From the NCBI GenBank assembly GCA_963575745.1, contig CAUYUJ010000052.1, positions 1-64,000 of the forward strand: DNA of 64,000 nt, in the 5' to 3' direction. Each line of letters starts with the position of its first letter. Positions within the stretch are counted from its first letter, which is position 1. A model generated the notes under the pieces. That model saw nothing but the letters and a program-made list of their open reading frames with translations, was not told the DNA's origin and did no database searches. The stretch comes from Prorocentrum cordatum. Lineage: Eukaryota. Shown here one piece after another: positions 822 to 63,392 of this stretch. The position numbers were made by a program, and so were the translations under genes.

Positions 822-3800
822 GTCCGCTACGACACGCGTCCGCGGATAGAGAAAATCAGCGCCATGGTAAGGGATGGGAGGGAGGGGTAGGACGTCAGAT
901 ATGACGCGAGCGCACCTAGCTTGCCCTCCCCCCTCTCCCCTCCTCCCCTTCCCCTCCTCCCCTCCCCCTCTCCTCCTCCTCCTCCTCCTCCTTCTCCTCC
1001 TCCTCCTCCCCCTCCTCCTCCTCCCCCTCCTCCTCCTCCTCCTCCTCTCGCTGCACCTGGATACGTGGTGAGAGGGACGGAGGGCCCGAGGGCGGGGCGT
1101 GCGGAGCGGCACGGGCGGAGGTCGAATATTGACGCGGAGGGGACAAGGGGAGGGGGGGCGGTGAGCTAGGGCTCCCAACTTCGCGCTTCGCGCTGCGCGA
1201 AGCGCGAAGCGCGAATAACTTCGCGCTCTCGCGCCGCCCTCCCAGAAGGAGAATAGGAGGACGAGGAGGAGGGGGAGAAGGAACGAGGACCGCGAAGCGC
1301 GAAGCGCGAATAACTTCGCGCCCTCGAGGGAGCCCTTGGTGAGGAGGGGAGCTGGGGGGGAGGGGGGACGATCGTGGAGAGGAGGACGGCCATGACGGAA
1401 GATGAGGAGGAAGAGGAGTTCCTTTCAGCAGATTTCCGTGCTCTCGTTGGGAAGGAGAAGGAGAGAGAGGAGGAGGAGAAGGAGGATGAGGAGGAGGAGG
1501 AGGAGGAGGAGGAGGAGCTGGATGTGGAGGAGGAGGAGGAGGCAGTGGAGGAGGAGGAAGAGGAGGAGGAGGCAGTGGAAGGGGAGGGAGGGTCCAGGAG
1601 GAGGAAGGACGACCATGAGGAGGGAAGGGAGGCTCATCGTGAAGGCGAATGGTCACAAAGGACCCCGATGACAATTATGAAGGAAGGGGGACGTGAAGGA
1701 GGAGATGAGATGGAGAACGAAGGAAGATCACGAAGATAAACACACGGCCAAACAGCACGCAACACGGCTCGAAGAGGGTCTGATTCACGGACGCGCGACG
1801 CGGGCCCCCTGGGCTCCCGGGCGGAATGCGGCACCGGCCCGCGCGCCAACTTTTGCCCGCGACTGCCTGGCCCTCGAGGGACTTATTTGCCGCACCAGCG
1901 AGAACTCCTCGCAGCGTTCGGGGGCAGGCGTGGGACGCAACGGGCCAGCACTTGGGCACAGCAAGCGAGTGAACGGAGAGGAACGCGCGGAGGGGGGAAG
2001 GGACCACGTTCAGAACGTGAAGTCCTTGAACGTGGGAGCCCGAGCACGTGCACAACGAGGATGGTACGACGTCTCGGAAGTCCGCGCAGACTATGTGGAT
2101 CGGCGCTGAACCACGCCCCGCGTGGCGCGCGGAGCACGCAAGGGGCGGCGCTGGGGGCGCGAGACTACCCTTAGGTCGGGCACGTCCCATTACAGGCGAA
2201 TTTGGGACGAACAGTAGAAAGTAACGAAAGCAGATTCAAACATGGTCAAAGAAATAGCTGGAACCCCTCCCCAGGCTATTCATGTTTTAGCGATGTTTGA
2301 ACATTACGATTGTAGAGGGACGCGCCCGACTTCAGACTACCCTGGGAACCCGAAACCAACACATGCATTTGGCCGCGGCGCGGGCGGCCACGCGGCCAGC
2401 AGCGCAGGCCGATGCCGGGCTGCGAGATGGCAGACGGAACGCGTCGGACGCGAGGGGAGCCGCGGAGAGAGGGGGACCGCGGGCAGGTGCAGCGGGGACC
2501 GCGGGCAGGTGCAGTTGTGGGGGGGTCCTCGGGAGACTTTGGGGAGGTCTCGTGGCCACGAGCCGCCTCGGAGCGCATCTGAGGGCTCTTGGAGCAAGGG
2601 CTCCCAGCTTCGCGCTTCGCGCTGCGCGAAGCGCGAAGCGCGAATAACTTCGCGCTCTCGCGCCGCCCCCCCAAAGGGAGAATAGGAGGACGAGGAGGAG
2701 GGGGAGAAGGAACGAGGACCGCGAAGCGCGAAGCGCGAATAACTTCGCGCCCTCGAGGGAGCCCTTGTGGAGGCACGTGGGTAAATCAGCAGCACCCCGC
2801 AACAGCAGATACAGTGGGGGCCCATGCCAAGAAACATCCTGCTCGCCTCCAGGGTGCCCTGGGCTTCTTGGGTTTCGATGGTTCTGCGATGGGAAGCGTG
2901 ACCTTCCCTCACCAACAACCAAGGGACGTCCTGGGGTCTCAGGGTTGGGTTTCTTGTGGAAGGTTTCTTGTGAACTGGCCTCCACTGTAAGGCGCTCAGA
3001 ACATGCAGCCCCTCACTGCAATTAGGTCGGGCATGTCCTCCAACGGGGGGATTTGGGACGAAGAATGGCACAGATTCAAACCATACTCAAACATTGTCTA
3101 AACATGCCATCGAAAAATCGTCCCCCTACTATTTTGAACCATGTTTGAACATTCCTCCTGTGGAGGGACACGCCCGACTTAAAGGTATGGCGCTCAGAAC
3201 ATGCAATCCTTCATTACAAGTCTCCCCGCCGCTTCGCCGCAGCATCGCCGACGCATCGCCGATGCATCGACGACGTCAACGATGCGTCGGTGCCGTCGGC
3301 GTGGAGAAAGTCGGTCTCCACATCGCACCGCATCGGCGATGCATCGTCGATGCGGCGCGATTCTCCAACACTGAAGGGGCCCTGGGACACACAAATAAAT
3401 ACACACAAATAAAACTATTCCCCACATTTTCCCATATTTTCTGGGGTTTTGTCTTCCCGCCCAAGTCCCATATGTTCCCATATTTTCCTGGGAATCGACG
3501 ATTCATTGTGTCTGTGTGTTTTTTCCCCTCCTGAAACACCCTCAGCTCCTACCCCATCTGGGAGGCCTCCTAAGTTCGCGCTTCGCGCTGCGCGAAGCGC
3601 GAAGCGCGAATAACTTCGCGCTCTCGCGCCGCCCTCCCAAAGGGAGAATAGGAGGACGAGGAGGAGGGCGAGAAGGAACGAGGACCGCGAAGCGCGAAGC
3701 GCGAATAACTTCGCGCCCTCGAGGGAGCCCTTGTTTTTCCCCTCCTGAAACACCCTCAGCTCCTACCCCATCTGGGAGGCCTAGATATTCGCGCGGGAGT

Positions 3801-6800
3801 GGCGGCCCAGGCCCATGGGTGAGATTCGTGCGAAGCAGCTGCACTATTTTCCCCTGCCAGGGCGCCGTGAGGGGCACCCTGTATCGGGCGGGTGGTACAC
3901 AGGTAAGGCAAAACAAATGGAAATTAATGAATATCTCGAATTATTTAAACGATAATTTGCACATCATTTGATGAAAAATAAATCGGGCAAAAGAAACTAC
4001 CATGATAAATATAGACGAAAATTTGCTTTATGCATTCTCCAAACAAATCTGCGATTACAATTTACAATAATTCGATCAAAACGATTGGGGGGTGACCGAA
4101 AGTGGGGGGGGGGAGGGCCCTATATGGGGCGACGAGATCTATGCATATCCACTGCTCCTGGCCAGGCCCATCCTGGGCCCAGGAGCTGTGTATATGCCTC
4201 CCTGGCCAGGCCAGGAGGGCGTACACACCGCTCCTGGGCCCAGGATGGGCCTGGCCAGGAGCAGTGGATATGCATAGATCTCGTCGCCCTACTATAGGGC
4301 ACCTCTTGGGTCCTCCAGAAAGGGCCCTGAAAGCACCCGGTTGGGTCCTTCTCTCCACCCCCCACGCAGGTCACCCCCCACTGCCGCCCGCCCGACAGGA
4401 GCCCTGGGAGGTCCGCGGCAGGCGCCCGCCGCTCCCAGGGGCCCGTGCAGAGACCTCCGCGGAGGCCCTGTACTCAAGGGCCGAGGGCCCTCGGTCGGGG
4501 ATCTTCTGACCCGGGTCAATCCAGACCCGGGTCAGCAGGAAACCAAAAACTGCAATGCAGGAAAAAAAATGGCAACGCAGGTCTTCGCAAACCCAGGTCA
4601 ACCAATACGCGCGGCCGCCTCGCGGCCACGAGCGGCTCGCTAACCCGGGTCAGCCAGAGGGCGTCTTCGCAGGATCCTGCAGGATCTGGCGCTCTGGCTG
4701 ACCCCCGTTTACACTGACCCCCGTCTCTTAGGCCCCGACTCGGAGCGAGCGCGCGGTCCCCGGGGCATCTCGCCAGTTTTGTTGCTCGGCCACCGATCCC
4801 GTTCGGCCGAACCAGACCGTGCGGACCTCTCGCTCTCCCTCCCGCCGCCCTGCGCCAGCGGAGCCGCCCCCCGCGACGCCTCCGCCGCGGAGGGCGGGGA
4901 CCCGCCCGGAGCAACGCCGCTCCGGGAGCGCGCCAGCGGGGCTGCCAGTGCGCTGTGATCGAAGCGGCGGCGCGCACAAGGGTGCTCCAGATTTCGTAAT
5001 AAAGGGAGGGGGGTCTCATTTCGGGGGGGGGTCTCTTCCAGGCTATCTTGGAGGGCCTGGGGGGGTCTGGGGACGATGTTTTGGAGGGTTCTCCCACGGG
5101 GGAGGTCTGAAATGGCTTGTCTTGGAGGGTCCAGACCCCCTCCCTTTTATTACGAAATCTGGAGTAACTTAGGGGGATGGGGGGAAGACTTCTTCAAAGC
5201 CTCCTCCTCAGAAGGCGCCGGCCTCAAGTCTACAGACAAGGCCCGTGCCTCTGAGAAACAGGGGTGCCTCTCAGAAACAGGGGTGCCTCTGAGAAACAGG
5301 GGGGGGGGAGAGAGGAGAGAGGAGAGAGGAGAGAGGAGAGAGGAGAGAGGAGGAGGAGGAGGAGGAGGAGGAGGAGGAGGAGGAGGAGGAGGAGGAGGAG
5401 GAGGGAGGAGGAGGAGGAGGAGGAGGAGCAGGAGGAGGAGGCTGCTCCCCCCGTCCCCCTCTGCGCGTGGCCGAGCAACCTCGGGCCGGGTCGCAGCGCC
5501 CGGCTCCAACCGGCCCTGGCCGATGCCGGGCAGATCGAACCTGGGAGCGCAAGAAACGGATGCATCCCCCGCACGAGGAGGGGGAGGACCCTGACCTTCC
5601 AGGAGGGCTAAAAAATAGCACCCGACGTAAAAACCTATCCCAGAGCTATTCTACGTCTTGGTTTTAGGCTGTTTCGTCCTGTGTTTTAGGCTTTTAGGTG
5701 TCCAGTGCTAAAAAATAGCTCTCTGGAAGGTCAGGGGAGAAGGACGAGGACGAGGACTGAGAGGAGGAGGAGGAGGAGGAGGAGGAGGAGGAGGAGGACG
5801 AGGAGGAGGGCGATGGTGGGCACAGCAGATGCTGTCCCAGACCGACGGCGGCCGCTGTTGGACAGCCGCCTGTCTCGAGCAGGCAACGTCCGCGGCGACG
5901 CCGTCAGCGAGTCCTGTTCAAACTCGACACGGGCTGCTGTCAGTCTTCATGCACAATCTTGCTGTGCCCATTTCGCTTGTACCGGGTACCGAATCAAATC
6001 GAATCGGCAGCGCGGCCAGCGGATCGCATCGCATCGAATCTGATCCCAGCGGCCCTGCGGAGCAGCCCTCTGTGGGCGATGCGCCCTCTGGGCTCTCGGC
6101 GGTGGGCTCCCGTCGTGCAGCCTTGGCGCCGCCCCAGCTCCCCGCGCAGGTGACGCCTCGCAGCTTGCTGATCTAAGAAAGGATACGTCGACCCCTCTCC
6201 CAGGCTTCGTGGGGTTTTCGAATGCACCATGAATTTGGGGCCCAACCCTGGGAGCTACGATGGGAAGGCGTCCATCCTCGACGGGGTTGCGTCCAAGTAG
6301 ATAGCCCCCTTGGGGTGCACCCCAAATGTTCCCCTCTTTCTCTGAATGGAACTTTTCCGGCGGCACTCGGGAATTGGGGTTAGGTCGGGCTTGTCATCCT
6401 ACAGGGGGATTTTGGACGAAAGCCAAAACATACGCAACACGTATTCAGAAATGGTTACAACATGTTAGAACAATCGTCCGCGGAGTATGTTTTGACTATT
6501 TTTTAATGTTCCTCCTGTAGAGGGGCACGCCCGACTTAAAATTGGGAGAGAACTGCACCGCAATGCCTGCGCCGATCTGCTCCGCAATCCCTGCGCGCTG
6601 CCTCCCAGAATTTCTCCCAGTCGCCTGCGCCGATCTGCTCCGCAAAATGCCTTGCGTCGCACTGCCCTGCGCCGCTGCTCGGGCGGGGCCCAGAACACGT
6701 CTTTATCACTCGCGGTAACGCTTGTGACCGGCCCCCGTCACCTTAGGTCGGGCATGTCCCCCTACAGGCAGATTTTGGATGAAAAATAAGACATACCCCC

Positions 6801-9800
6801 AAATGCCCCAAAATACCAACAAAATTACAAAAAAACGTACCTGGACTATTTTTTCTATTTTTGAATATTCCGACATGCCCGACATAACCGTCACCCCGCC
6901 ACTCGCCCCTGGTCACATTACGGATTCGCGCCGGCGCCGTCTGGGAATCAGCCACCCTTCGGCGTTCCCACATGGTGCGGGCGCGAATCGCGACGTGACC
7001 CGCTCCCTCCTCCCTCCCCCCACCCCGACACGCTCACGGCCGCCAAGAAGAACGAAACGCTGTCCTGAACGACGACCCCTTCCGTGACGAGAGCGGGGTC
7101 CCGAGCTTGGAGGCGGCCAGGGGCTCTGAGCTGGCTGGGCCCCCCCCAGAAACTCTGTCAAAAAATGGATCCGTCAAATTTCAGATTGGGCCTCGGGACC
7201 GTCAGAATCCACTGCGAAAATCCAGTTTTGACGCGGTCAAATCAGAGGAGCCCGTTTTGCCAGATCTCGACTTGAAGCAGGTCCGGTAGATTGCCCCAGA
7301 TTTGATGCAAGCAACTCCGCTGCAAATCGGTCCTCGGGCCCCTCCTAAGAGGTCTAGATGGTGCAATTTGCTTCTCCCCGCAGGCGTGTTCGACGGCAGC
7401 GAAAAGGCCAACAACCTCGTCGAAGCCAGAACCTCGAACCTCGCGCCACCTTCCTTGAAGGGGCCCAGGGACACACGAATGAATACACATAAATCCCAGG
7501 ATTCCCCACATGTTTCCATATTTGTGGTACTTCCCCCCCACTTCCCATGTTTGCCCATATTTTCGGGGGGATCGACAATGGATCATGTTCGTGTTTCTTC
7601 CCCTCCCGATTCCTGCTCGCCCGAACCAGTGCTGGGCAACTCCCGACCCCTGGCCGACTCCAACCCTGAGCTCGCCCAACGAAGCGTGCAGCCGGCGACG
7701 TGCAAGCCCAGGGAGGACGCCCAAAGAGAGGACGCGCAGAGAGGACGCCCCGAGGGGACGCGCAAAGAGATGCGTAGATGCGTTCTCTCTCTCTGCGCCC
7801 TCCGAGGGCGCCCAGAGCGTGAGGGGCAACCAAAGGGGGGCATTGCCTGAGGGGAGGGGACTTCGACCTTGAAACGACGATACTCAAGGGGCCCCAGGAC
7901 ACACAAATAAATACACACAAATAAAAAGATTCCCCATATTTTCCCATATTTTCTGGGTTTTTGTCTTCCCCCCCACTTCCCATATTTTCCTATATTTTCC
8001 TGGGGATCGTCAATTAATTGTGTCTGTGTGTTTCTTTCCCTCCTGAAATACATCGATCTATCGGCGATGAACCCCCGCTAGCGAATCCGCTTCCTGGGCG
8101 AGATGGGGCAATCGAGGGAAAACTGCACCAATGACGATCAAGGGGCAATCAATGGGCGAGTGGGCGACGATCAATGGGCGATTGGGGGTCGATGCATTCC
8201 CCCCTTGCCTATCAGGTCTGCGCTGGATCGGATCGCGAAATCGGATCGGATCGAGAGCAGATCGACTCGCCAACGAATCGTCCCGAATCGGATCGGCATC
8301 GAATCGGCGCGCCCCGCTTCCGGCTGGCCCTGGCCGATGCCTGTGAATAGAGCCGGATCGCATCGAACTGGAATCGCGGCCCCAGCCGGCGAATGGAATC
8401 GCATCGAATTGGATCGTAGGCGGCCCTGCCTATCCCCCCCAAGCGTTGCCGCTGAGAAAAGACGCGCACTCCAAACCACGTGCATGGGGATTCCGCCCGA
8501 GGGCGAGGCCGCCCTCGCGCTCGAGAAGAACGGGCGTCCTACGAGAGATGACGTAGCGGCCTTCCGCGGTGGCTTACGCGGGCCGTCGGCACGGCACGCT
8601 GCCTTGGAATCGAGCGAGCGTACGCGCGACCTCATTCGGGACGCCCACGCGCCAGTGGGCGCCGCGTCGCATGTGGGCGACGAAAAGACAAGGGTCTTGC
8701 GCATGTTGACGTAGCAACCTTGCGCAGTGGCTTGCGCGGGCCGCCAGCGTAGCACACCGAGTGGAGAAAGAGGGCGCTTCAAGGCGACCTTGAGCAAGGA
8801 ACTTACGCGCGAAGATCCGCGCAGCCGACGCCACGTTCTCCCTTCGCTCGAGTGGATTCGTGTGCGCGAGCGTCATTGCCTCCTCCTCCTCCTCCTCCTC
8901 CGCCTCCTCCTCCTCCGCCTCCTCCTCCCTCTGCCTCCTCCGCCTCCTCCTCCTCCTCCGCCTCCTCCTCCTCCCCCTCCTCCTCCTCCTCCTCCTCCTC
9001 CTCCTCCTCCTCCTCCTCCCCCTCCTCCTCCTCCTCCGAGGTGAGGATGAGGAGCGCCCCCAGCGCAAGGCCCGACAGTACATCAGCGCGGTCACCAGTG
9101 GGGTGGCCCATCCGGCCCCTCTCGGCGACCCACGGGCGATCGGAGGTCGATGCGCCCCGCCCTGAGTCTAACTCAAGACGGAGCCAGGACGGGGATCAAT
9201 TTGAAGTTCAATTGAAGTTCAAAGTGATCCTCCCCTCCCTTCAATTTGAAATTCAAATTGATCCTCCCCTCAATTTGAAGTTCAAATTGAGGTCCTGGCT
9301 TCGTCTTTTTTGCACGAAGATAACATTCATCTTCGCTCAAATCGGAGATCTCTGAGACCCGGCGGTTCTGGAGGATGCATCGGGCACCGCGGATGCCCCA
9401 GAGCGTTCCGGAACGCTCTCAGAGCGCTCCTGGCAGCTCCTCTGGAACGGATTCTCGGGGATGGACAGACCATCCTTTAGTAAAACGTGGTTTAGTGAAA
9501 ACGACCTGAGGCCCAAACCTGGCGGGCGCAAGCGTGGAAAATAACGGCCACGGCGCCCTCTCGAGAACCGAAAACGGACAATTCACTAATCGACGTGTCA
9601 CTGTTGGGGGTTCTGCCCACCCCCGAGATTCATCCTCGTCCTGGTCCCGCCCGAGAACCCCACCCTCCCAGTGCTCCCCAATCTTCGGGTCAGAGCTCGG
9701 CTCTCCGGCGGCCGTTCCGGACGAGGCGCGGCCGCGGGAAGGTAACTCCCGCGGCTCGGGAGCCAACGAGGTCTGGCGAAAACGTCCGGAAGCCTCGAAA

Positions 9801-12800
9801 CTCGAAGCCCTTCGCTCCCACTATCTGCGATCCGTGGGCGACTGGGTGGTGATGCATCCCCCCCTGATCCATCTCCGCGTGACGTTGCCCCCCCTGAACC
9901 TAGATAATGTTAGGAAGGCTGGGGGGAAGTTTCCTCATTTGACGATCGGCGCTTGTTTGTTTTCAGTGCTTGGGACTCTCGTCTCGCCATGGCATGTGCG
10001 GGCTGCTGCTTCTTGTGTATGTGCGTTGGCTGATTTGGTTGGCCGACATCCAAGCAGTTGAAAACAAGCACACGCCCCTCAGCGCTTGCAACATCAACTA
10101 TGTCGAGGCCCCCGATTCATCGATGCTCAGCGACGGCGGCACAGCGCTGGCGGCGACGGTGCCGCCTGCAAGCCCCCGGCACCGCCAAGGCGCTGGGTGG
10201 CCTCTGGGGCCGGAGTCGGCCTGGCCAGACCGGTCACGTCCATGGGGGGCCCGCCTCTGCGGGGGCAGCCACGTCCAGGGGAGGATCGTGGGCAAGGGGG
10301 GGAGGGGATGATGCGGAAACGGAGATGAAGGAGAAGGAGGAGGGACCGGAGAGGAAGGAGAAGGATGAGGAGGAGGTGAGGGGAAAGCAGGAGGAGGAAC
10401 ATGAGGAGGATTGGGCGAAATGAGTGAGCGAGGTGAGCGCGGGCATGGGGCGAAAGGAGGGAGGAGGGAGGAAGAGGATAAAGATAAAGATAAGGCCGTT
10501 GGGGGTCTGAATGTCAACCACTTTACTTGCTTGACTGACCACTGGGTGGGGATAGGATGCAGTCCCAAGAACTCATGGCAAGTGAGGAAGAGAAGGAGGG
10601 GACGGATGAGGAGGAGGAGGAGGAGGAGGAGGAGGAGGAGGAGGAGGAGGTGAATGAAGTGAACGAATGAAAACCGAGTGGCCAGAATGAGCATTCGAAA
10701 CCCTATGTGACAGATGGAACATGCTCGAGGCAGCATATGCAGGCAGGACGGCGCCTGATCATGACTTGCAGCTTCACTTCGCACTGTGAACATATATGCC
10801 AACTTGTGCTGTTTGGTTTCAAATACCACGCTTGCCCCGTGCTACCGCGCCAACCTGCGACGCCCCCGCCGGCGACAGCTGCAGGTCCGATGCCCGGTGC
10901 CCGAAATCAAGCTGCGCCACTTGGGGCGGGCCCCCGTTCCGGGGGGCCGAACGCTGCGACAGGCGGGGCCCGGTGGGCCAGGCCCCGGGCCGGCGAGCCA
11001 CCCAGGCGCACCGCTGTCCTCCCCCATCGGCTCGGGGTAGTCCCCAACTTCCCAAGCCGAGTTCAGCAGTGGCGACGCCGAAGCACCCCGCCGAATCAAC
11101 CGATGGACCGACTGCACACGTAAAGGGACAGGTGGATGGGAGAGGAAAAGAGGAGAAGGATGGTCAGGCAAGGGACAAGAAGGAGGACGAGGAGCACGAG
11201 GAGGATCGGGTGTGGGCAACCTATGCTGGAGCACTTTGCAACCTTCTACCTGTGCGCGACCATAAACCGTAGCCGCAGTTGCACAGCGAACATGCCTGCC
11301 TGCATGCAACTGTTTGAGTTTTCAGTGTCGAGAAGCCACACTGCAAGGAGTCTCAAGCGAAACTCACGGGCAAGCCTACGGTCACCCCTGGTGGTGCGAC
11401 ACAGGAGCTGCTTCCCCCGGAGGGAGCCTGGAAGAGGTCCCCCCAACTGCCGATGCCTGTCTTTTCTGAATACGGGGTCCCCGACCTTTTCGGTCGGAAG
11501 AAGTAGTCATCGGTCCGAAGAAGTAGGAAGAACGTAGGGTAGAAACATGAAGTAGGAAGGCGCTGAACGTAGATTGGGTGTCCGCCCGCCCCCTCGGGAG
11601 GACGGAAAAGGTGAAGCCACTCGATCATTGAAGAAGGGAGGCGTTTAAAAAAGATTGGAATCTGGCACCCCAAGAAGACCTACTTTCAACGACCGATGAT
11701 TCATCCGGAATCGTTTTTGGACGGTCCAGGGGCCCGGCGACGGCCCGCAGAGGCCGAACACGGCTACTCCAGATTTCGTAATAAAAGGGAGGGGGTCTGG
11801 ACCCTCCAAGACAAGCCATTTCAGACCCCCCCCCCCGTGGGAGAACCCTCCAAAACATCGTCCCCAGACCCCCCCAGGCCCTCCAAGATAGCCCGGAAGA
11901 GACCCCGCCCCCGAAATGAGACCCCCCTCCCTTTATTACGGAATCTGGAGTACACGCACCTTCCACCGTACTGTACTGGACGGCCGGACCCAGGACAGAA
12001 GAGCTTCCTTCGAGAACATGAGACCCCCCGCTGGCCAGACAGACGAACAGTCGAGGGCACCCTCCCCAGGAGGCACAACAACTCTCAAGCACCGCGCAGA
12101 GCAGCAGGGTGCCCTCCCCGAGCCGACCTCGATCTCCTGCCCAGCTCCGACCGCACAGCGACGCGAGAGAGGCCTTGGGCCCGCCCCTCCTGCTCGCGCC
12201 TCCCCAGAAGAGGAGGAGGAGGAGGAGGAGGAGGAGGGGGAGGAGGAGGAGGAGGAGGAGGGGGAGGAGGAGGAGGAGGAGGAGGAGGAGGAGGAGGAGG
12301 AGAAGGAGGAGGAGGAGGAGGAGAAGGAGGAGGAGGAGGAGGAGCAGGAGCAGGAGCAGTCGTGGAGCAGGAGCAGGAGCAGGAGGTTTGATGCTCGTGT
12401 GGGCTCGGGGAGAAGGGCGAGGGCTGCACGCGCCGAACGAAAAACAGAGAGCCCCCCTGGGCGCAGCGGGGAAGCGCAAGACGAAGCCAGGACGAGGATA
12501 ACATCGGGTGCAGATAAGTTTGGGCGTGGCTCCATGGGGGGGTCACAAATGGGGGGGGTCAGAAACTCTCCCCTCTTGTGCCTCTTTCGGGCCCCTCCGG
12601 AGCCGCGGGGGGCTCGTTCAGGTACCGTTTGGGTACCTTTTCGGACCACCCTCGCCACCCCCCCATCTACGACCCCCTCATTGCGCAACGCCCAATAAGT
12701 AGAGAATCTCTGTTCTCCGGAGGCTCTGGAGGATGCATCGGTCGGGGATGGACAGAACCCCCTTTAGCAAAACGTGGTTTAGTGAAAACGACCTCGGGCC

Positions 12801-52463: not shown

Positions 52464-55400
52464 CTCCTCCTCCTCCTCCTCCTCCTCCTCCTCCTCCTCC
52501 TCCTCCTCCCCCCCTCCTCCGCCAGTAGGCTTTCTCCGCGCTGGTAAAAAGTGTGAGGGGTGTGCTGAAATTGGTGTGCGAGACGCATGCGGGCGGTGAC
52601 AACAAGGCCTTCGATGGAGTTCCCTATGGGGCCACGAAACGTATGAGGGATGTGCCGAAATTGGTGTGCGTGACGCACGCGGGCGGTGGCACTGTGGCTT
52701 TCGGTGGAGCTCCCTATGTGGCGTGACGCATGCGGGCGGTACCTGGGTCTTCAGTAGAGCTCCGTGGGGCCACGCATCGTGTGAGGGGTGTGTGTGCCGA
52801 AGTGAGGGGGGTGATGGGAGGAGGAGGGGGAGGAGGAGTGAGGGACGCGGGGCGCTGTCTCTTCAAAAGAAGGACCCGACACTACAGGATGGTTGGGTAG
52901 TTTCCGGAGCCGCGGAACATGTCTAATCGTTGCCTGGACAGTGGGATGACGGGACCCCCCCTTGGCGTTTTCTAAGCTTTTGCTCGCGCATTATCCGTGC
53001 TCGCTGTCGGCCAGGGGCCCTAAGCCAGACCTCGCGGCTACGACCAAGCTCTGACCGCCGAGGTTCCGCGGTTAGAACTTGATCTTAAATGGCGATGGAG
53101 CAGGGGGAGGGGGAGGAGGAAGATCAGGCGTATACTCTGTACCCCGTGGGGCAGGCAAATTTATCTTGGCCTCATTTGCCCATGGTGTTCCGCTGCGCCT
53201 GTCCGACTTGATTCGTTGGCCTCTGAGCCTAAAAATGTGTTTTCACGCGCCTTTGTTTCCCCCACAGACGCCACAATCCTAGAATCAAGTCCGCGCGATG
53301 TCAAGGGGCGGCGAGGTCCCGAGGTGGTCCGCGTGGGACCCACCTCCGCTGGGCCTCCCAGGAGCCCGCGAAAGCGGCGACGGTTGCGCAGATCACAGAC
53401 GGCACGAGAGAAGAGGAGAGGGGAACACGGGAAACAGGGGAGAAGGAGGAGAGGAGCAGAGGAGGAGGAGGAGGAGGAGGAGGAGGAGGAGGAGGAGGAG
53501 GAGGAGCTGGAGACCACACTGCTCTATTCAAGACGAGTGCCCAGCACAGGAGGGCTGGGCAGGAAGAGCAGGAGGAGGGCACGAAGGCAGTCGAAGCCTC
53601 GACGCCGCGAGACCCCGAAACCTCGCACGGGCGCCCCGCGGCGCAGCGCCCGGCCGCGCCAGCCCCCTCCCTCCTCGGCGAGCCCGCGGCCACGGGGGGG
53701 GGGGCGGAGGGCCAAAGTTAGGTCGGGCATGTCCCCCTACAGGCCGATGTTCGACGAACAAGGAAAACTACGCAAAAAGTACTCCAACATTACTGCTAGA
53801 AAATACCAGAAAAATCACCCCCATACGCTCTTGGTTGGAACTATGTTTGAATAGTCCTCCTGTAGAGGGACAGGCCCGATTTAAGGCCAAAGGGAGGGTT
53901 GGCCGTCCAGCGCGGCGTCGTCCAGCGTCAGCAGCTGCGACAGGTCCTGGGGCGCAGCCACCGGCGATGCACCAGGCGATCGAAACTCCAGCCATGCCCC
54001 TGCTCACGCCAGGGCGGAACATGCGTGAGATCCTGGCCTCCTCCGAGGCCACGCTCCTGGAAGAACAAACAGCTGGCCATCGCTCGGACGTCCATTCCCT
54101 GTTTTTTTCGGTTTCGGAAGTCCGCGCGGACTTCTCGGATCTGTTGGCGCGCGGAGCGCGCCAGGGGCGGCGCTGGAGGCGCCGTCGGGGGGCCCCAGCG
54201 CGGATCCAAGAAATCCGCGCGGAGCGCCAAAAGTTTATGTTTATGGCGTTTTTCTTCTTCTGTACCCTGCTGCACCTTGCGTCCAGAAGCGGGGGCAGCA
54301 GCAGGGGTATGGATCGAAGGTCGGCCACCGATGCACATGCCGATGCCAGGTCGTCGCCTCCCTACCACGGGTCTGCCTCCAGAGCGGTTCGGAAGACCTG
54401 GATCTGGTCATTGTGGTGCAGTCCCTTTTCTTCCATAAGTTAGACTTCGAATAGAGAACCTGAGGAAAAACTAGACAAACTGTCAAGCAATTCCGGAACA
54501 CTGAGTCCTCCCAAACGAGGAGGGTTCCTTCTTCAGCGGCCCAATTGTAGTCATGGTGCTGGGTCCACTCACGATCAATATGAATTCGCTGCCACTCTTG
54601 ATTAAAGACGCGCCACTGATATCTGGACAGCTCGGAATCTGAAACAAAGCTCGCATTTGGCATGACAAGTCGTAACAGCATTCAGCTATTCAATCCGCGC
54701 TTTGAAGATCGACAAGCATATAACGAACACAAGCATAAGCTGCCACAGGTCCGCGGGGAGTCAGTGGATCGGCATCGGCTGGAGGCGGCGGGGGGATCTC
54801 AACTGCACGGGGCCCCAGACAATCGATCAAGAGGAGGGGAGGATGCCAAATCTGCAAACATCGGTCACCAGACCTCTGCCCGGGGTCCACCTAGGAAAGC
54901 TGTCCCACCCGAGGAGGAGGAGGAGGAGGAGGAGGAGGAGGAGGAGGAGGAGGAGGAGGAGGAGGAGGAGGAGGAGGAGAGAGAGAGGAGGAGGAGGAGA
55001 GGAGGAGGAGGAGGAGGAGGAGGACGAGGACGAGGAGGAGGAGGAGGAGGAGGAGGAGGAGTAGGACAGAACGCCTGCTCGAACCCCGGGCACCTCGGAC
55101 CTCGCCCCCCCCCGCTCCCTGCTCGCTGGAGCCAGTGCGGGACCACGCCTCCGACTCCGAGCCAGCTCCAGTAGGGCGACGAGATCTATGCATACCCACT
55201 GCTCCCGGCCAGGCCAATCCTGGGCCCAAGAGCTGTGAATACGCCCTCCTGGCTTGGCCAGGGAGGCATATACACCGCTCCTGGGCCCAGGATGGGCCTG
55301 GCCAGGAGCAGTGGATATGCATAGATCTCGTCGCCCTATCCAGGTCAGAGGTCCGCGCAGCGTGAGTGGGTTTTGCCGTGTTTGGCCAACACGGCAAAAC

Positions 55401-58400
55401 ACGGCAACACGGGGCCGGCAAAAAAACGGCCCTGTCGTTTCCAGGGCCCACTAGGAGCCAGACGGCGTGCGCCTTCTTCGGGGCGCGAAGCGCGAAGCAC
55501 GAACTTGGACGCCCGAAATGGGTACGGAAACAATGGGTACACTGCCCAACAACAGATGTTGTCCCAAACCAACAGCGGCCGCTGTTGGGCAGGCGGCCTT
55601 CTGTCTCGAGTGGACACAGGCCGCGGCGACGTGGACAGCGAATCCTGTTCAAAGTGAACAGGAACTGCTGTTGGGCATCGTACCCATTCTTTCCGTGCCC
55701 ATTTCGGGCGTCCAGAACGAGGGGAACTCTTTGATGACGCCGCGGAGCCGGCGGGGGAGCTGTCGATGGCACCCGCATCCCGTACTTGAAGCGGGGCGCA
55801 TCCTGCCCAGAGCCCCCTCTTCTTCCTCCTCCTCCTCCTCCTCCTCCTCCTGCTCCTCGTCCTCCTCCTCCTCCTCCTGCTCCTCCTCCATCCTCCTCTT
55901 CCTCCTCCATCCTCGTCCTCCTCCATCCTCGTCCTCCTCCTCCTCCTCCTCCTCCTCCTCCTCCATCCTCCTCCTCTTCCTCCTCCTCCTCCTCCTCCTC
56001 CTCCTCCTCCTCCTCCTCCTCCTCCCCCTCCTCCACCCCCCTCCTCCATCCTCCTCCTCCATCCTCCTCCTGCTCCTCCTCCTTCTCCTGCTCCTCCTCC
56101 TCCTCCTCCTCCTCCTCAATCCTCCTCCTCCTCCTCCTCCTCCTCCTACTCCTCCTCCTCCTTCCTCCTCCCTGGGGTCTGGAGGGGACCGCGACGCGTC
56201 GGAGCGTCCAAGATGTCTCAAACATGGCTCCACGCCGTCTCGCCTCTTGGCTTCCGGTGAGCTTCGGGTTCCCCCGGATGGTGCCAAGATCGCTAGAGAG
56301 AGAGCCCCAAGAGGTGCCCAAGACGGCGCAGTGCCGCCCCGAGCGCCCTCCAAGAGTGCCCGAAAAAACTACACATTTGGCTCCGACGGGAGGGCGTAAT
56401 ACGAGACGCCCTCTCTCTGAATCGATGGCCTCCAAAATGGCCTCAAGAGATCCCTCAGGACCCCCAAGATGGCCAAAACATAGCACAACAGGCTTCCAAC
56501 ATGAACCCAAGAGGGCCCAAATAAGCTGCCAAGAGGCTCCCAAGTAAGCTACCAAGAGGCTGCCGCGAGAGCATGCATGGTTGATTCCAGGGCCTGTTCA
56601 GGCTCAACCCAATCTTCGGTTTGACGGCTGTCCCCCCCGTGGTCAAGTGCTTGCTCCTATACTTCCCTGATCAGGGCAACTCGCCTGGGCATCGTTTCTG
56701 TAGATGGGCTGGTGGGGATACGCGATGCGTCAAACAGTATGCTTACTTGTGCACTGTCTTGTTCTTCGACTGCAGGGGTCGCCTGTGTCGCGTGCGACGC
56801 GATGAGGAGCGGGCACTCGCCTGGCTTCCCGAGGAGTAAGATCAGATAGTGGCCGCCGGATGCCAGAGGGAGCCAAAGACGTCCACGAACCTCGATCCTC
56901 GATCCTCAGACCTCCTGGTGCGGGAGGGGGGCCTGTATCCCGTGCGCCGCGATGACGAGCGCGTACGCGCCGGGCAGGCTGTGCATCTCGAGGAAAGAAA
57001 TCAGATCCTGCAAGGGGGGGATTGAGCAAAAGTAAACTGGGACCGTGTGAAGAGGGGGAAACACCGACTTGGTTGGAATCGGCGATGCATCGCCGATCGA
57101 TCCGCGACAGCCTCCCGATAGCAAAACCGGACGCTCCTGGGCGGGACGGGCTGCCGGGCTCCAAAACTGGCGATCAATGGATCCGGCGCGTGGGCCCCCG
57201 ATCCAAGGATCGGGAAGAGCTCTCCCCCGGCAACACGAGCCCAATGCCGCCTCTGAGCCGGCGGCGGAACGCGCAGACTGTGCCGGGGACACGGGACGTG
57301 TCGCCAGTCCAGGCGCCGTTTGTGCACGCTTGCGCGCTGCCTCGAGATCAGGGGCTGGAGCGTCCTCCCCCGAGCGTGTCCCTCCACCGAGGTTGCCACC
57401 CCCCCCTGGCTTCTGGCCATACCTCTGCGCTCGGGCGGTCGTTCGGGAGGACTCTCGGGCACTCCGGGAACGCTCTCGGCGAGGAGAAGCTGCTGAAAGC
57501 AGTCTCAATTAGGCTGGAGCGCCGACGAGATCCTACGAAAGCGTCCAGCAACCTCGATCCATGGAGCCTTCTGTCTCCCCCCGAACCTCCCTGAATTGTT
57601 GTTTGCGTCTGCGCTTCCTCGAGAATGGGGGTCGAGATCGTTTGCTTGATCCTTACATTGCACAGTTGTGTTCTCGAGCTCAGGCACCTTTCTCTTCGTG
57701 GTCGTGCGCAGGGCTGAACCTAACCGGTGCTTTTCGTTTCCGTTTTGTTGTCGTGCTCCCTCATGTTGTCTTCAGTCCGCCTTTTTCGCGCAAAACGAAC
57801 TCGAAACGAAAACGGCCCACGAAATCACCAAAACACCGTTTATCGCGAGCGGCCAAGAGGGGGGTGTCCAAGAGGGGAGGTGCAAATCATGACCGGCTGC
57901 ATGTGCGCGGCCCAGCGGGGGGGCCAGGGACGTGATGAAATGAGAAGAGGCGCCATGAAATCTGGGGAAATAGCATGGCCCACGCCATGAGATCCCCCCC
58001 CCTAGTCATCACCCCCCTCTTTGCCGCCCCCGAGTTTAGGTCCACCCCTGGCCGTGCGCCCTTCCCCCCCGGGCCTCCCTGGCCCCCTCTCCGGGTGAGC
58101 TCAGCGGGGCCTCCCCGGGCCCTCGTGTTCCCTCGTGTTGTCTTCAGTCCGCCTTTTTCACGCAAAACGAAACCGAAACGAAAACGGCCCACCCCTGGCC
58201 GTGCGCCCTTCCCCCCCGGGCCTCCCTGGCCCCCTCTCCAGGTGGGCTCAGCGGGGCCCCCCCGGGCCCCGCTCCCGCCCCCTGGTCGCGGAGCCCTGCA
58301 TCTTTCGTGGTCGTTCGCCCTCGCACCCGGGGCTTCCTGGTCTCCTCCACCGGCGGCGGGCGAAGGGGGGAAATGAGAAGGAGAAAGCCCTCTCAGAAGG

Positions 58401-61400
58401 TGGCGGGGCTTCTCGAAGCCCTGGCGCGGCTTCCGAGAAGTCTTGGGCTGTCGTCGGGGAAGGCTCAGGAACCTCCGCAGAAGCCCGGGAGGCTTCCAGG
58501 CCCTCTGCGAAGGCCCGCCCCTTCCCACTTCCCCCCCCTCGCTCGCCGCCGGTTTCTGGGGCCGCGGAGCCCACCCGCGGAACCCACGCCTGGCCCCCCT
58601 ACCCTACCGCCCCCCCCCCCCCGCTGGGCATCCCTGGCGCGGAACCCTTCCCTGTCCCTTCTCGCTCGCCCTCGTGCGGCTCCCTGGCATCCTCCCCTCC
58701 TCGGGGCCGCGGAACCCACCCGCGGATGCCACCCCTAGAGGCCTCCTAGATGGGGTCCGAGTAGATGGGGTCGGAGGATGGCGCCGCATCGACGATACAT
58801 CGACGATGCATCGGCGATGCATCGGCGATGCATCGGCGATGCACCAGCGATGCATCGTCGACGTCAGCGATGAATCGGCGACGTCGACGTGAAGCAAATC
58901 GGGCTCCACGTCCAGCCGCATCGGCGATGCGTCGGCGATGCGGCGCGCTCCTTCGACCCCATCTACTCCGGCCCCATCTGGGAGGCCTAGAACCCCTGGG
59001 CCACGCCCCCGCCCTTGGCCCACCGAGCCTGTTCCTGTTTGTGGTCGTTCGGCCCGCCCTTTTCCCCCTCCGCGGCTCCCCAGGCCTCCTCCCGGCGAGG
59101 CCGCGGGGCCCCCCAGCGGAGCCCCGAGGAGGAGGAGGAGGAGGAGGAGGAGGAGGAGGAGGAGGAGGAGGAGGAGGAGGAGGAGGAGGAGGAGGGGGGA
59201 GGAGGAGGGTGAGGGGGGGAGGGGGAGAACGAGGAGGAGGAGGGGGAGGAGGAGGAGGAGGAGGCGCATGCCCCCCCCTGGACCTCCCTGGGCTTCCCTG
59301 CGCATCCCACCCCGGTTGGGCCACGGAGCCCACCCCTGGCCCGCAGCCGGGCCCCGCGCCCGCAGCGGGCCGAGGAACAGTCTGCTTGCACGGTCGCTCG
59401 TCCTCCGTGCTGCGCCGCCCTGGCTCCCCTCCTAAAACAGGGCCAGGATCGGGACAAATCGCTCCAGGGCGTTCCGGAGCGCTCTCAGAGCGTTCCGGAA
59501 CGCTCTGGCGCGGCCGCGGCGCCCAATACATCCTCCAAACCCGCCGATTCTCAGAGACTTCGAATCATCCCGATCCGATTTGGTCCCGACCTTCGCGTCG
59601 TTGTACCTCCCTTTCTGGGCCGCGGAGCCCGCCCGCGGAACCTGCCCCTGGCGCCCCTGGGCCTAGCCCGGGGCCTCCCTGGCCCCCCCCCCCCCCGGGC
59701 GGGCCGCGGAGCCCACCCCGTGGCCCCCTTCCGGGCTCCGCCCCCGCCCCCGGGGGATATGCTGGCGGCGCGCCCCATAGGGGGCGGAGGGGGGGGGGGA
59801 GGGCTTCTCAGAAGGAGGGGGGAGGGCTTCTTAGGAGGAGGGGAGAGGGAGGGGGCTGCTCAGGAGGAGGGGGAGGGAGGGGGGAGGGAGGGGGGAGGGC
59901 TTCTCAGAAGGAGGGGGGAGGGCTTCTTGGAAGGCTTCTCAGAAGGAGGCAGGGGGGATAGCTTCTTAGAGGGAGGGGCGCCTTCTCAGAAGCAGGGGTG
60001 CCTCTAAGAAGCCCTCCCCCCTCCCCCACCCCACCCCCCTCTGCGCGTGGCTGAATAATTATGGGCATGCTCTCCATGCGCTGTCGACACCTCGACAGGC
60101 CGCCGGCCGCCGGCTACGACGTCCCGACCATCGGGAGACTTGCACCCCGGCTGCGCGAGCAAGGAGAGGTCAGCACCGAATGGATGAACCACATATCGGA
60201 CCGACAATTGCGTCGGATGGGGCCGCATCGGCGAGGAGCGAATCGGATCGGCCACACCACGGTGCACAGCGACGTGCAAGCATGGGGCCGCGTCGGATCG
60301 TCGGAACATTGAGAACGAGTCGGATCGAGCCTGCCGAAGTCGATCTGGATTCGGAGCGATCGCATCGGAGTGGGCCTCGAATGGATGTCTGTGCCGGGGG
60401 AGAACCGTGCAAGCTGCGGGTCATCCCTCTCGGCGGCCCAGGGACCAAATCCGGGCAACATCGGTACCCGTACCCCTCCTGGGGTCCAGCTGGCGCAGTC
60501 GTTTACCCTTGCTCCGTTCTTGACGGTCCTGGAGCCCGAAAGCGGCCTACGCTAGGGCTCCCAACTTCGCGCTTCGCGCTGCGCGAAGCGCGAAGCGCGA
60601 ATAACTTCGCGCTCTCGCGCCGCCCTCCCAAAGGGAGAATAGGAGGACGAGGAGGAGGGGGAGAAGGAACGAGGACCGCGAAGCGCGAAGCGCGAATAAC
60701 TTCGCGCCCTCGAGGGAGCCCTTGCCTACGGGGGCAAACAACAAAAACCTTGAACCTCGAAGCAGCCCCTGCCCGAACCCAGTACCTCGAAACGGCCCGT
60801 CCTCCCTGGTAGCCGAATCTAGTGCTGGACCACCGCAGACCCCCACACGGCTCAAAAAATCGTCCTTCTCCTCCGACTCGTCCTCCCCGGACGCAGTCCG
60901 CTCGGCAGACGGGCCCCCTCGGGCCCAAACGTCTGTCGATCGTCTGTCGATCCGCGGGCCCCAAAGGCAGGCAAGACCAGAATCGAATCGATCATAAGTC
61001 GGCTCGACGATCGATGAGCCAAATCGGTGATCGATGGGTCGAATCCGAAGTCGAGCCGAACCGGAATCGGAATCCATCGGAATCGCATCGATGCGGATCG
61101 GGGGAATCCAAACGAGCCGGCGTCGCTGCCTGGGGGGGCGGAAAATGGGGGGCTCACCTCTCGAGCCCTGAAGGCTCGGGCCTCTTGAGGGGCCCTGAAA
61201 GGCTCCTCTTCTGCAGCCCTCGCTGCGCCTCCCAGTGATCGCCCTCCCACTGCGCGACGCCCAGTCGATCCCAACTCCCTCGAGGCAGGTGTCCCTGCTC
61301 CAGATCGGACTCGGAGGGCCCCGAGCCAATGGCCGCTCTGGCGGGGGGCCACTCGGAGGCCTCCCTTGGCCCTCTGGGGATTTTTCTGAGGATCCAGCGC

Positions 61401-62578: not shown

Positions 62579-62745
62579 CTAGGGCTCCCAAGTTCGCGCT
62601 TCGCGCTGCGCGAAGCGCGAATAACTTCGCGCTCTCGCGCCGCCCTCCCAAAGGGAGAATAGGAGGACGAGGAGGAGGGGGGAGAAGGAACGAGGACCGC
62701 GAAGCGCGAAGCGCGAATGACTTCGCGCCCTCGAGGGAGCCCTTG
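62579..62745 (+). mobile_element. MITE family A
   Basis: TIRs; 6-bp TSD gttttc. Confidence 0.85.
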
Positions 62746-62855: not shown

Positions 62856-63007
62856 TGGAGGGCCCCAGGACACACCAACAAATATACACACAAAAATAAT
62901 AAGATTCCCCATAGTTTCCTACATTTTCTAGGTTTTTGTCTTCCCCCCCATTTCCCATATTTTCCCATATTTTCCTTGTGTGTGTGTGTGTGTTTTCCCC
63001 CTCCTGA
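62856..63007 (+). mobile_element. MITE family D, diverged
   Basis: Same body; TSD degenerate. Confidence 0.7.
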
Positions 63008-63198
63008 AAACTGCTCCCGGGCGGGCGGCCGTTCGGGACGATCCAGTTAACCCTGGGGCGCTCTCAGCGAGGCGCAGCCGCCCAAGGCCCCCCGGACGAT
63101 GGAAAGCAGACGAGATCCGACGAGACCATCAAGAAACCTGGAACCTGGAAACCGTTCGCCCACTCCTGAACCGAATCCCCCCTGACGTTGCCCCTGAG

Positions 63199-63392
63199 TC
63201 GGGAGCGGCAAAGAGGGGGGTGTCGAAGAGGGGGGTGTGCAAATCATGACTGGCGGCATGTGCGCGGCCCAGCGGGCGGGCCGGGGACGTAAGGAAATAA
63301 GAAGAGGCGCCACGAAATCTGGGGAAATATCATGGCCCCCGCCATGATATCCACCCCCCCCTAGTCATCACCCCCCTCTTTTCCGCTCCCGA
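63199..63392 (+). mobile_element. MITE family P
   Basis: TIRs; TSD ctgag. Confidence 0.8.

What the first reader, a model, noticed from the sequence alone, without database searches (positions are those of the whole stretch)
1166..63392. Unrelated DNA-type MITE families are each co-oriented across 62 kb, on both sides of an apparent gene strand switch
Seen: internal asymmetry lets orientation be scored. Family A is 6/6, B 7/7, D 5/5 and TA-MITE 4/4 in one orientation; P, Q, C, N and O also agree within family. For the four largest families alone, chance agreement is 2^-18 if insertions are independent and unbiased. Most copies have their own distinct TSD, so they are separate insertions and not segmental duplicates. 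Exceptions: family G (one copy each way) and the satellite-carrying element. Established: cut-and-paste TIR elements generally insert in either orientation. Inference: a chromosome-scale polarity (replication direction, chromatin architecture, or splice-related selection as with Introners) steers insertion or retention. If both gene models are right, the bias does not flip with transcription direction, which argues against a simple transcription or splicing explanation.
Basis: partly seen in the sequence, partly recalled or inferred. Interest (0 to 1): 0.8.

Follow-up and report, generated by a model that had tools for sequence, protein, structure and literature searches.

The report
Same-way-round MITEs across 62 kb
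Dozens of tiny transposon relics from many families all point the same way along 62 kb of gene-poor dinoflagellate-type DNA, so something directional in the chromosome, probably one-way transcription, seems to decide which insertions stay.

Summary
Self-BLAST and strand-blind nhmmer scans give A 6/6, B 9/9, D 5/5, TA-MITE 4/4, K 7/7, F 6/6, E 3/3 and I 3/3 copies in one orientation. Over 17 families there are 44 concordant and 4 discordant orientation choices (P = 8e-10). Copies have TIRs, unrelated flanks and their own TSDs (TA, 5-6 bp, 8 bp), so they are separate insertions.

The "gene strand switch" is not supported. Pfam scans of 582 ORFs plus the gene ORF found two coding pieces. One is a complete intronless steroid-reductase gene on the minus strand, preceded by a relict dinoflagellate spliced leader. 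The other is a plus-strand RNase H piece that is a 5'-truncated, frameshifted LINE fragment.

"Unrelated" is partly overstated: A, B, D and I share 5-bp TSDs, and A, B and D have similar termini.

Best reading (0.4): the window lies inside one unidirectional transcription block, and only one orientation of each element is retained. Insertion-time polarity, or introner function in unannotated genes, remains possible. No RNA data could be laid and no genome was available, so chromosome scale and mechanism are untested.

The parts
1166..1338 (+). MITE A1 (TIR CTAGGGCTCCC/GGGAGCCCTTG, TSD GTGAG)
2595..2767 (+). MITE A2 (TSD TGGAG)
3563..3733 (+). MITE A3, 5' end atypical, flanked by a perfect 49-bp duplication (3520-3568 = 3734-3782)
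12977..13142 (+). MITE A4 (TSD ATCTA)
60552..60724 (+). MITE A5 (TSD CCTACG)
62579..62745 (+). MITE A6 (TSD GTTTTC)
3230..3370 (+). MITE B1 (long-TIR family with GCATCGGCGAT repeats); right arm interrupted by D1 and followed by A3
16612..16785 (+). MITE B2
   Evidence: +87.8 vs -47.4 bits
18087..18304 (+). MITE B3
   Evidence: +125.2 vs -79.1
22475..22618 (+). MITE B4, 117 bp downstream of the stop codon of the minus-strand gene
   Evidence: +101.0 vs -44.7
27755..27943 (+). MITE B5
29413..29675 (+). MITE B6 (most palindromic copy: +198.6 vs -171.4; asymmetric core motif is on +)
33058..33238 (+). MITE B7
34848..35077 (+). MITE B8 (TSD TCGAA)
58736..58987 (+). MITE B9 (TSD ACCCC)
3372..3535 (+). 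MITE D1, nested in B1 (TSD AACAC)
7456..7606 (+). MITE D2 (TSD TTCCT)
7885..8047 (+). MITE D3 (TSD ATAC)
33992..34155 (+). MITE D4 (TSD AGAGA)
62860..63008 (+). MITE D5 (5' truncated)
19473..19647 (+). TA-MITE T1 (about 25-bp TIR TACACC...GGTGTA)
28510..28676 (+). TA-MITE T2, abutting E2
30310..30469 (+). TA-MITE T3
30838..31013 (+). TA-MITE T4
2171..2332 (+). MITE K5 (TIR TTAGGTCGGGC..., 8-bp TSD AGACTACC)
3022..3183 (+). MITE K2
6380..6540 (+). MITE K1
6743..6887 (+). MITE K7 (8-bp TSD CCGTCACC)
46749..46901 (+). MITE K6
47057..47220 (+). MITE K4
53718..53884 (+). MITE K3 (8-bp TSD GGCCAAAG)
5170..5276 (+). MITE F3 (partial)
13778..13960 (+). MITE F1
14721..14837 (+). MITE F5 (partial)
15723..15804 (+). 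MITE F6 (partial)
47307..47484 (+). MITE F2
59883..60054 (+). MITE F4
16970..17172 (+). MITE E1 (TIR TCGGGGAGAC...)
28311..28513 (+). MITE E2
48364..48557 (+). MITE E3
9455..9626 (+). MITE I1 (TSD GATTC)
12742..12913 (+). MITE I2 (TSD ATCGG)
47558..47714 (+). MITE I3
4985..5166 (+). MITE G1 (33-bp TIR, TA ends); discordant pair with G2
11765..11950 (-). MITE G2, 96% identical to G1 but inverted
59463..59561 (-). Repeat M, discordant copy (other copies 9342, 14311, 32230 are +)
58341..58519 (-). Repeat P, inverted relative to 34161-34336
41972..44604 (-). 77-bp satellite array, opposite in orientation to its dispersed 90-bp relatives at 18431-18750, 50419-50614 and 52547-52803
22735..23514 (-). 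Complete intronless gene, 259 aa, steroid 5-alpha-reductase family (PF02544), GC3 87%
23539..23557 (-). Relict dinoflagellate spliced-leader-like sequence (16 of 19), 25 nt upstream of the ATG
50670..51929 (+). 5'-truncated, frameshifted LINE fragment (zinc knuckle plus RNase H), not a host gene

Best explanation
The window is repeat-rich, gene-sparse DNA of a GC-rich dinoflagellate-type genome. It carries at least 17 short repeat families. Most are classical non-autonomous TIR transposons (MITEs, 100-260 bp) that inserted one by one, mobilised by at least three kinds of machinery (TA, 5-6 bp and 8-bp TSDs).

Proposed mechanism: the whole 64 kb lies inside one strand-polar domain, most likely one unidirectional transcription block of the kind described for dinoflagellates. 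Insertion itself is orientation-blind. Copies that put the 'wrong' strand of an element into the long read-through transcript are removed by selection, because they bring cryptic splice, trans-splice, cleavage or termination signals. Selection is efficient in very large protist populations. Only families harmless in at least one orientation can reach high copy number. Those harmless in both orientations (G, palindromic H, perhaps M and P) show no bias.

Shown here: co-orientation, separate insertions, several TSD classes, a single minus-strand host gene, and the absence of a demonstrable strand switch.

Inferred: dinoflagellate origin, transcription of the non-coding parts, selection as the filter, and which strand is read.
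For: Co-orientation: 44 concordant against 4 discordant choices, P = 7.6e-10.

Independent insertions: TIRs, unrelated flanks and copy-specific TSDs.

Three TSD classes share the bias. That is hard to get from one transposase's quirk and points to a host-level, strand-reading filter.

Dinoflagellate context: an intronless, complete gene (homologues of 251-264 aa cover 98-100% of it) is preceded on the same strand by a 16-of-19 match to the DinoSL motif, where 0.01 matches are expected per window. Relict DinoSL upstream of the CDS is the published mark of dinoflagellate retrogenes (PMC5585692, passages).

Published dinoflagellate features (passages read): genes lie in unidirectional blocks with strand-exclusive RNA (PMC8110479), and arrays average 800 kb in A. 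carterae (PMC11572971), so a 64-kb window is expected to sit inside one block. Introner-like TIR elements with 4, 5 and 8-nt TSDs create introns in a single orientation (10.1101/2020.10.14.339549).

No plus-strand host gene was found. The only plus-strand coding piece is a dead LINE, which would be antisense to minus-strand transcription.

Unique sequence shows a small A>T excess on the plus strand: +0.036 overall, positive in 12 of 16 4-kb bins, negative in 3 and zero in 1.
Against: Only one host gene lies in 64 kb, so 'one block' is an expectation, not an observation.

Selection would have to act on insertions in mostly non-coding DNA and for nearly every family.

The youngest family (A, 93-99% identity) is already 6 of 6. 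That fits bias at insertion as well as fast purging.

No motif is shared by the families on one strand. Substitutions in the copies show no clear strand asymmetry: C>T 76 against G>A 101, with families disagreeing. The skew in unique DNA is weak and negative in 3 of 16 bins.

A GC dip at 36-42 kb resembles what is described for convergent block boundaries, although the minus-strand gene to its left does not fit a convergent boundary.
Confidence: 0.4

Rival explanations
1. Polarity acts at insertion. A strand-asymmetric target state, such as the replication fork (leading versus lagging template) or the transcription bubble or R-loop, orients strand transfer, so cut-and-paste elements enter in one orientation per domain. 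This would be the eukaryotic counterpart of Tn7/TnsE or IS200/IS605 behaviour in bacteria (recalled knowledge, not from a call).
For: The youngest family is already 6 of 6 (identities 93-99%). The bias holds in DNA without detectable genes. A, B, D and I share a 5-bp TSD, and A, B and D have similar termini, so a single machinery with such a property could explain 23 of the 48 choices.
Against: TA-type (T 4 of 4) and 8-bp-TSD (K 7 of 7) families show the same bias, so several unrelated transposases would all need the property. G, a young TA element, is 1+/1-. No eukaryotic precedent was found in four literature searches, which cover only the held library.
Confidence: 0.2
2. The copies are working introner elements. 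The window is covered by unannotated 'dark' multi-exon genes on one strand, and each MITE is spliced out as an intron, or as part of one, which works in only one orientation.
For: Dinoflagellate introner-like elements have TIRs and TSDs of 4, 5 or 8 nt, and many classes create introns in one orientation only. A high-GC dinoflagellate genome is reported to have long introns enriched in elements with 8-20-nt inverted and 3-5-nt direct repeats, and about half its genes have no annotation (10.1101/2022.07.25.501386, passages).
Against: The TSDs do not fit the published splice-recruiting patterns (GHNN, AGGH, NAGGH or NNAGG, GHN6) on either strand for A and K, and fit only loosely for D. No element ends in AG on the plus strand, and A ends in TAG on the minus strand in only 3 of 6 copies. 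Removing each of 38 copies in silico does not give longer junction-spanning ORFs than removing 300 random 170-bp pieces (medians 211 and 215.5 against 199 and 214.5 codons). Pfam found no coding signal next to any copy. D1 lies inside another MITE.
Confidence: 0.15
3. The copies are not independent. Old segmental or tandem duplications, or orientation-preserving local copying, spread elements that were already co-oriented.
For: Copies cluster: A1-A3 lie within 2.6 kb, T2-T4 within 2.5 kb, and K pairs are 310-360 bp apart at 6.4 kb and 46.7 kb. A 49-bp perfect duplication flanks A3.
Against: BLAST alignments stop at the element ends and the flanks are unrelated. Copy-specific TSDs are present. 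Offsets between copies of different families are not collinear (coordinates). Copies of A up to 59 kb apart are 94-99% identical, while their flanks gave no self-BLAST hit.
Confidence: 0.07
4. Chance, mis-scored orientation of palindromic elements, or an assembly artefact.
For: B, F, O and H have long TIRs, so both strands align. B6 scores +198.6 against -171.4.
Against: A, D, T, K, E and I give essentially plus-only alignments. A, D, T, E, K and I alone give 22 concordant choices, which is 2^-22 by hand from the counts. An assembler cannot create TSD-flanked insertions in one orientation.
Confidence: 0.02

Closest known systems
Introner-like elements (ILEs) of dinoflagellates (Roy et al., preprint 10.1101/2020.10.14.339549; passages read)
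   Same: Both are short TIR elements with TSDs of 4, 5 or 8 nt. Several mobilisation machineries coexist in one genome. Orientation relative to the transcribed strand is fixed or biased.
   Different: ILEs are defined as introns inside genes and recruit splice sites from TSDs of set patterns. Here no copy is shown to be an intron, the TSDs do not fit those patterns, and most copies lie in DNA with no detectable coding sequence.
Introner elements as defined in Amoebophrya and Prorocentrum cordatum: introns with 8-20-nt inverted and 3-5-nt direct repeats at their ends (PMC7789003; 10.1101/2022.07.25.501386; passages)
   Same: The end anatomy matches families A, B, D and I (10-60-nt TIRs, 5-bp TSDs), and the genome is of a high-GC dinoflagellate type.
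   Different: Those papers do not report orientation relative to neighbouring elements or outside genes, in the passages I read. Their supplementary tables were not opened.
Strand bias of transposable elements inside transcription units: antisense excess of L1 and LTR elements in mammalian introns, and sense-oriented SIDER elements in trypanosomatid directional gene clusters (recalled, not from a call)
   Same: Orientation follows the direction of transcription through selection on RNA processing.
   Different: Those cases concern retroelements. As I recall, the mammalian bias is only partial. Here cut-and-paste MITEs show 44 concordant against 4 discordant choices (92%).
Replication-directed orientation of Tn7 (TnsE pathway) and IS200/IS605 in bacteria (recalled).
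   Same: Transposons point one way over tens of kilobases because the target is strand-asymmetric.
   Different: Those are prokaryotic, each involves a single element type, and the mechanism is tied to the replication fork. Nothing comparable is established for eukaryotic TIR elements.

Membership tests
MITE (non-autonomous TIR DNA transposon) | Terminal inverted repeats | tested here: met
   A 11 bp, B about 60 bp, T about 25 bp, K about 26 bp, E about 25 bp, I about 15 bp, G 33 bp. D is imperfect..
MITE (non-autonomous TIR DNA transposon) | Target-site duplication of family-specific length, different in each copy | tested here: met
   A 5-6 bp (5 of 6 copies), D 5 bp (4 of 5), I 5 bp (2 of 2), B 5 bp (2 read), K 8 bp (clear in 3 and partial in 1 of the 6 copies printed), T and G with TA ends..
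MITE (non-autonomous TIR DNA transposon) | Short, no coding capacity, many copies with unrelated flanks | tested here: met
   Copies are 100-260 bp, no Pfam hit lies on any copy, and the flanks do not align.
Introner / introner-like element | The element is removed from the transcript as a spliceosomal intron | not testable with these tools
   No RNA reads could be laid.
Introner / introner-like element | Splice sites carried by the element end and/or recruited from the TSD (GHNN, AGGH, NAGGH or NNAGG, GHN6) | tested here: not met
   The TSDs of A and K fit none of these patterns on either strand, and D fits only loosely. No consistent terminal AG..
Introner / introner-like element | Sits inside a protein-coding gene | tested here: inconclusive
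   No coding signal flanks any copy, and the ORF-restoration test equals its controls. Genes without known domains cannot be excluded.
Dinoflagellate unidirectional gene block | Dinoflagellate origin of the DNA | tested here: inconclusive
   A relict DinoSL-like 19-mer (16 of 19, 0.01 expected) lies 25 nt upstream of an intronless gene on the same strand. GC is about 60% and there is one gene in 64 kb. No taxonomic label was available.
Dinoflagellate unidirectional gene block | Several neighbouring genes on one strand, and strand-exclusive RNA | tested here: inconclusive
   Only one host gene was found (minus strand). No RNA data.
LINE (APE-RT-RNase H non-LTR retrotransposon), for the plus-strand 'gene' | Collinear similarity to a LINE ORF2-type protein; truncation and frameshift | tested here: met
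   50% identity over 211 aa and 62% over 108 aa to residues 969-1270 of P0003 (1477 aa, PF03372 plus PF00075), in two frames. tblastn covers residues 934-1349 only..

The most novel reading that the evidence does not exclude
In this dinoflagellate-type genome a domain-scale strand polarity (replication fork direction or the transcription bubble) orients the integration step itself for several unrelated cut-and-paste transposon superfamilies. MITE orientation would then be a sequence-readable map of chromosome polarity domains. That would be a eukaryotic counterpart of Tn7/TnsE or IS200/IS605 behaviour and a new constraint on DDE transposition.
Probability: 0.15. Interest if true: 0.85.

Novelty: new variant of a known kind. 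Interest (0 to 1): 0.62.

Why it matters
TIR transposons are generally taken to insert either way round, so near-complete co-orientation of many families over 62 kb of mostly non-coding DNA is unexpected.

If it tracks the unidirectional transcription blocks of dinoflagellates, two things follow:

- MITE orientation could be used to read block direction and strand-switch points (dinoTAD borders) straight from sequence in genomes where half the genes are unannotated.
- It would show that selection on read-through transcripts reaches far outside genes, which bears on whether dinoflagellate arrays are transcribed as long units.

If the bias is instead set at insertion, it would be a new mode of target choice for eukaryotic DDE transposons.

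Four full-text searches and the passages read gave no report of such co-orientation outside introns. That covers the held library only.

Tried and rejected
- **Whole genome:** none is held, so no genome-wide orientation map was possible.
- **Sequencing runs:** no RNA holder was listed.
- **Read laying:** the first try was one base too long. I did not resend, so there is no read evidence of any kind.
- **Six-frame Pfam on long stretches:** I scanned stop-free ORFs instead, 150 + 150 + 150 + 132 = 582 of the 703 ORFs of 60 aa or more. Left out were low-entropy ORFs, 25 ORFs inside the 77-bp satellite and one duplicate. In those four scans only RNase_H passed its curated cut-off. Steroid_dh was found separately. 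PRIMA1, NeA_P2, Cytochrome_C7 and Mucin were below cut-off.
- **GC3 scan for exons:** only the steroid-reductase gene stands out.
- **ORFs over 250 aa:** they read as non-coding GC-rich sequence or repeat translations.
- **Rfam and tRNA scans:** nothing.
- **Full 21-nt DinoSL with 3 mismatches:** no match. The 19-nt version found the relict. A 15-nt core gave one further match at chance level (53078).
- **Substitution strand asymmetry in the copies:** marginal and inconsistent.
- **Skews of unique DNA:** weak.
- **Shared strand-specific k-mers among families:** none beyond chance.
- **In-silico excision test for restored ORFs:** equal to controls.
- **Metagenome scan with the A core:** one 2.5-kb contig with a single 83-88% identical copy, useless for orientation.
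- **Three viral-contig scans with A, T and B cores:** nothing.
- **Earlier findings of this scan:** nothing for this genome or sequence. Only prokaryotic parallels turned up.
- **Protein Atlas for the gene:** confirms the family, gives no taxon.

Full report
**What the window is.** The 64 kb has about 60% G+C with local dips: 36% at 24-26 kb, which is a 2.9-kb (AGT)n tract, and 48-52% at 36-42 kb, which holds (CATA)n tracts. After masking, 47% of it is tandem or interspersed repeat. No whole genome is held, so everything below concerns this window only.

**Checking the observation.** A self-BLAST clustered into families, followed by profile scans of both strands with nhmmer, gives these counts of copies in one orientation:

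- A 6 of 6
- B 9 of 9
- D 5 of 5
- T (the TA-MITE) 4 of 4
- K 7 of 7
- F 6 of 6
- E 3 of 3
- I 3 of 3
- J, N, O, Q and R 2 of 2 each

For B, K and I the extra copies were found by profiles built from other copies, and in each the plus score clearly exceeds the minus score. Examples are K 86.5 against 20.6, 77.2 against 17.8, 75.9 against 22.5 and 67.3 against 15.6, and B 125 against 79, 101 against 45, 97 against 38 and 88 against 47. B has TIRs of about 60 bp, but its asymmetric centre (GACGTCGGCGTGGAG...GAGCCGCATCG) is on the plus strand in all nine copies.

The exceptions are:

- G, 96% identical and inverted.
- M, 3 plus and 1 minus.
- P, 1 plus and 1 minus.
- The 77-bp satellite array, which is minus against three plus dispersed relatives.
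- H, a palindrome that cannot be scored.

The tally is 44 concordant and 4 discordant choices, binomial P = 7.6e-10. The eight families with three or more copies alone give 2^-35.

**Separate insertions.** Alignments end at the element termini and the flanks are unrelated. The TSDs are copy-specific:

| Family | TSDs read |
|---|---|
| A | GTGAG, TGGAG, ATCTA, CCTACG, GTTTTC |
| D | AACAC, TTCCT, ATAC, AGAGA |
| I | GATTC, ATCGG |
| B | ACCCC, TCGAA |
| K | GGCCAAAG, CCGTCACC, AGACTACC (8 bp) |
| T, G | TA ends |

D1 lies inside the right arm of B1 with its own TSD, and other B copies serve as the empty site. At least three kinds of mobilisation machinery are therefore involved. 'Unrelated' is partly overstated: A, B, D and I all make 5-bp (A 5-6 bp) TSDs, and the termini of A, B and D resemble each other (CAAGGGCTCCC, TAGAGGCCTCC, TGAAGGGGCCC).

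**Genes and the alleged strand switch.** I scanned 582 of the 703 stop-free ORFs of 60 aa or more against Pfam (selection), plus the gene ORF separately. Two coding pieces emerged.

1. 22735-23514 on the minus strand encodes a complete 259-aa steroid 5-alpha-reductase-family protein: PF02544 at 1.2e-14, GC3 87%, and homologues of 251-264 aa covering 98-100% of it. It has no intron. Twenty-five nucleotides upstream of its ATG, on the same strand, lies GTGGCCAGTTTTGCTCAAG, a 16-of-19 match to the dinoflagellate spliced leader, where 0.01 matches are expected per window. Relict DinoSL in front of a CDS is the published hallmark of dinoflagellate retrogenes (PMC5585692, passages).

2. The plus-strand RNase H signal at 51.0-51.7 kb belongs to a stretch, 50670-51929, that aligns in two frames to residues 934-1349 of a 1477-aa protein with APE endonuclease and RNase H domains. 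It is a 5'-truncated, frameshifted LINE, not a host gene.

No tRNA or Rfam family is present. I therefore find one host gene, on the minus strand, and no evidence for a strand switch.

**Context from papers (passages read).** Dinoflagellate genes lie in unidirectional blocks, with RNA almost exclusively from one strand per block (PMC8110479). Arrays average 800 kb in A. carterae, and convergent switch regions show a GC dip (PMC11572971). Introner-like TIR elements with 4, 5 and 8-nt TSDs exist in many classes, several of which create introns in one orientation only (10.1101/2020.10.14.339549). A high-GC dinoflagellate genome (59.7%) has long introns enriched in elements with inverted and direct end repeats (10.1101/2022.07.25.501386). 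None of these passages, nor four full-text searches, reports co-orientation of MITEs outside introns.

**Mechanism.** Several unrelated machineries share the bias, and only RNA-level processes read a sequence strand-specifically with sequence-dependent outcomes. I therefore favour retention under one-way transcription (0.4).

Tests that could have strengthened this were weak or blank:

- There is no shared strand-specific motif.
- Substitution asymmetry is marginal and inconsistent.
- A>T skew in unique DNA is small, +0.036 overall, and positive in 12 of 16 bins.
- No RNA reads could be laid.

Insertion-time polarity (0.2) fits the fact that the youngest family is already 6 of 6, but it needs TA, 5-bp and 8-bp machineries to share the property.

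The introner reading (0.15) fits the anatomy, but three results count against it. The TSDs do not fit the published splice-recruiting patterns, the ends lack consistent AG, and in-silico excision restores no ORFs beyond controls.

Hidden duplication (0.07) is contradicted by the TSDs and the unrelated flanks. Chance or artefact is negligible.

**What stays open.** Four things remain unknown: whether the polarity extends beyond this window, which strand is read across the non-coding parts, whether the 36-42 kb GC dip marks any boundary, and whether the bias is set at insertion or afterwards. Ten families keep their orientation across that dip, while M and P do not.

Noticed in passing
window 3520-3568 and 3734-3782: A perfect 49-bp direct duplication flanks MITE A3. 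It consists of the last 16 bp of D1 plus the outer 33 bp of the B1 right arm. A3's 5' terminus is atypical and resembles the B terminus. This is far longer than the family's 5-6 bp TSD, so it looks like an aberrant insertion or repair event.
   Followed up: partly
window 23539-23557 (-): A relict spliced-leader-like sequence lies 25 nt upstream of the intronless steroid-reductase gene, marking it as a probable retrogene. A 2.9-kb (AGT)n microsatellite (23633-26507) lies directly upstream.
   Followed up: partly
window 50419-50614, 50670-51929, 52547-52803: The dead LINE fragment is bracketed by two direct copies of the 90-bp 'S' repeat (about 83% identical) and followed by a (CCTCCT)n tract. 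Either the LINE landed in an S array or S is part of a composite element. The same unit, shortened to 77 bp, forms the 2.6-kb satellite at 41972-44604 in the opposite orientation.
   Followed up: partly
window 36000-42000: G+C dips to 48-52%, with (CATA)n-type tracts. The microsatellite changes strand form near 36.7 kb: TATG-type at 21418-21691 and 36569-36686, CATA-type at 36795-37023 and 39892-41138. GC dips are described at convergent block borders in dinoflagellates, but the gene to the left is on the minus strand, which does not fit a convergent border.
   Followed up: no
L001 122-287 and 352-2421: A marine metagenome contig carries an 83-88% identical family-A copy 65 bp from a 690-aa ORF with no Pfam hit. 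The ORF's Atlas look-alikes include clusters in which a minority of members carry Plavaka (38%) or Transposase_21 (15%) domains. This is a lead to a possible autonomous partner, not tested further.
   Followed up: partly
window 4127-4293 and 55170-55338: Family H is an almost perfect 167-bp palindrome (foldback element): the two copies align equally well in both orientations (259 and 228 bits).
   Followed up: no
window 28311-29675 and 33058-34336: Two dense pile-ups of different MITEs lie end to end (E2-T2-Q1-N1-B6, and B7-N2-O-D4-P1). T2 starts within 3 bp of the end of E2, and N abuts B in both places but on opposite sides. This suggests insertion hotspots at or in resident elements.
   Followed up: no
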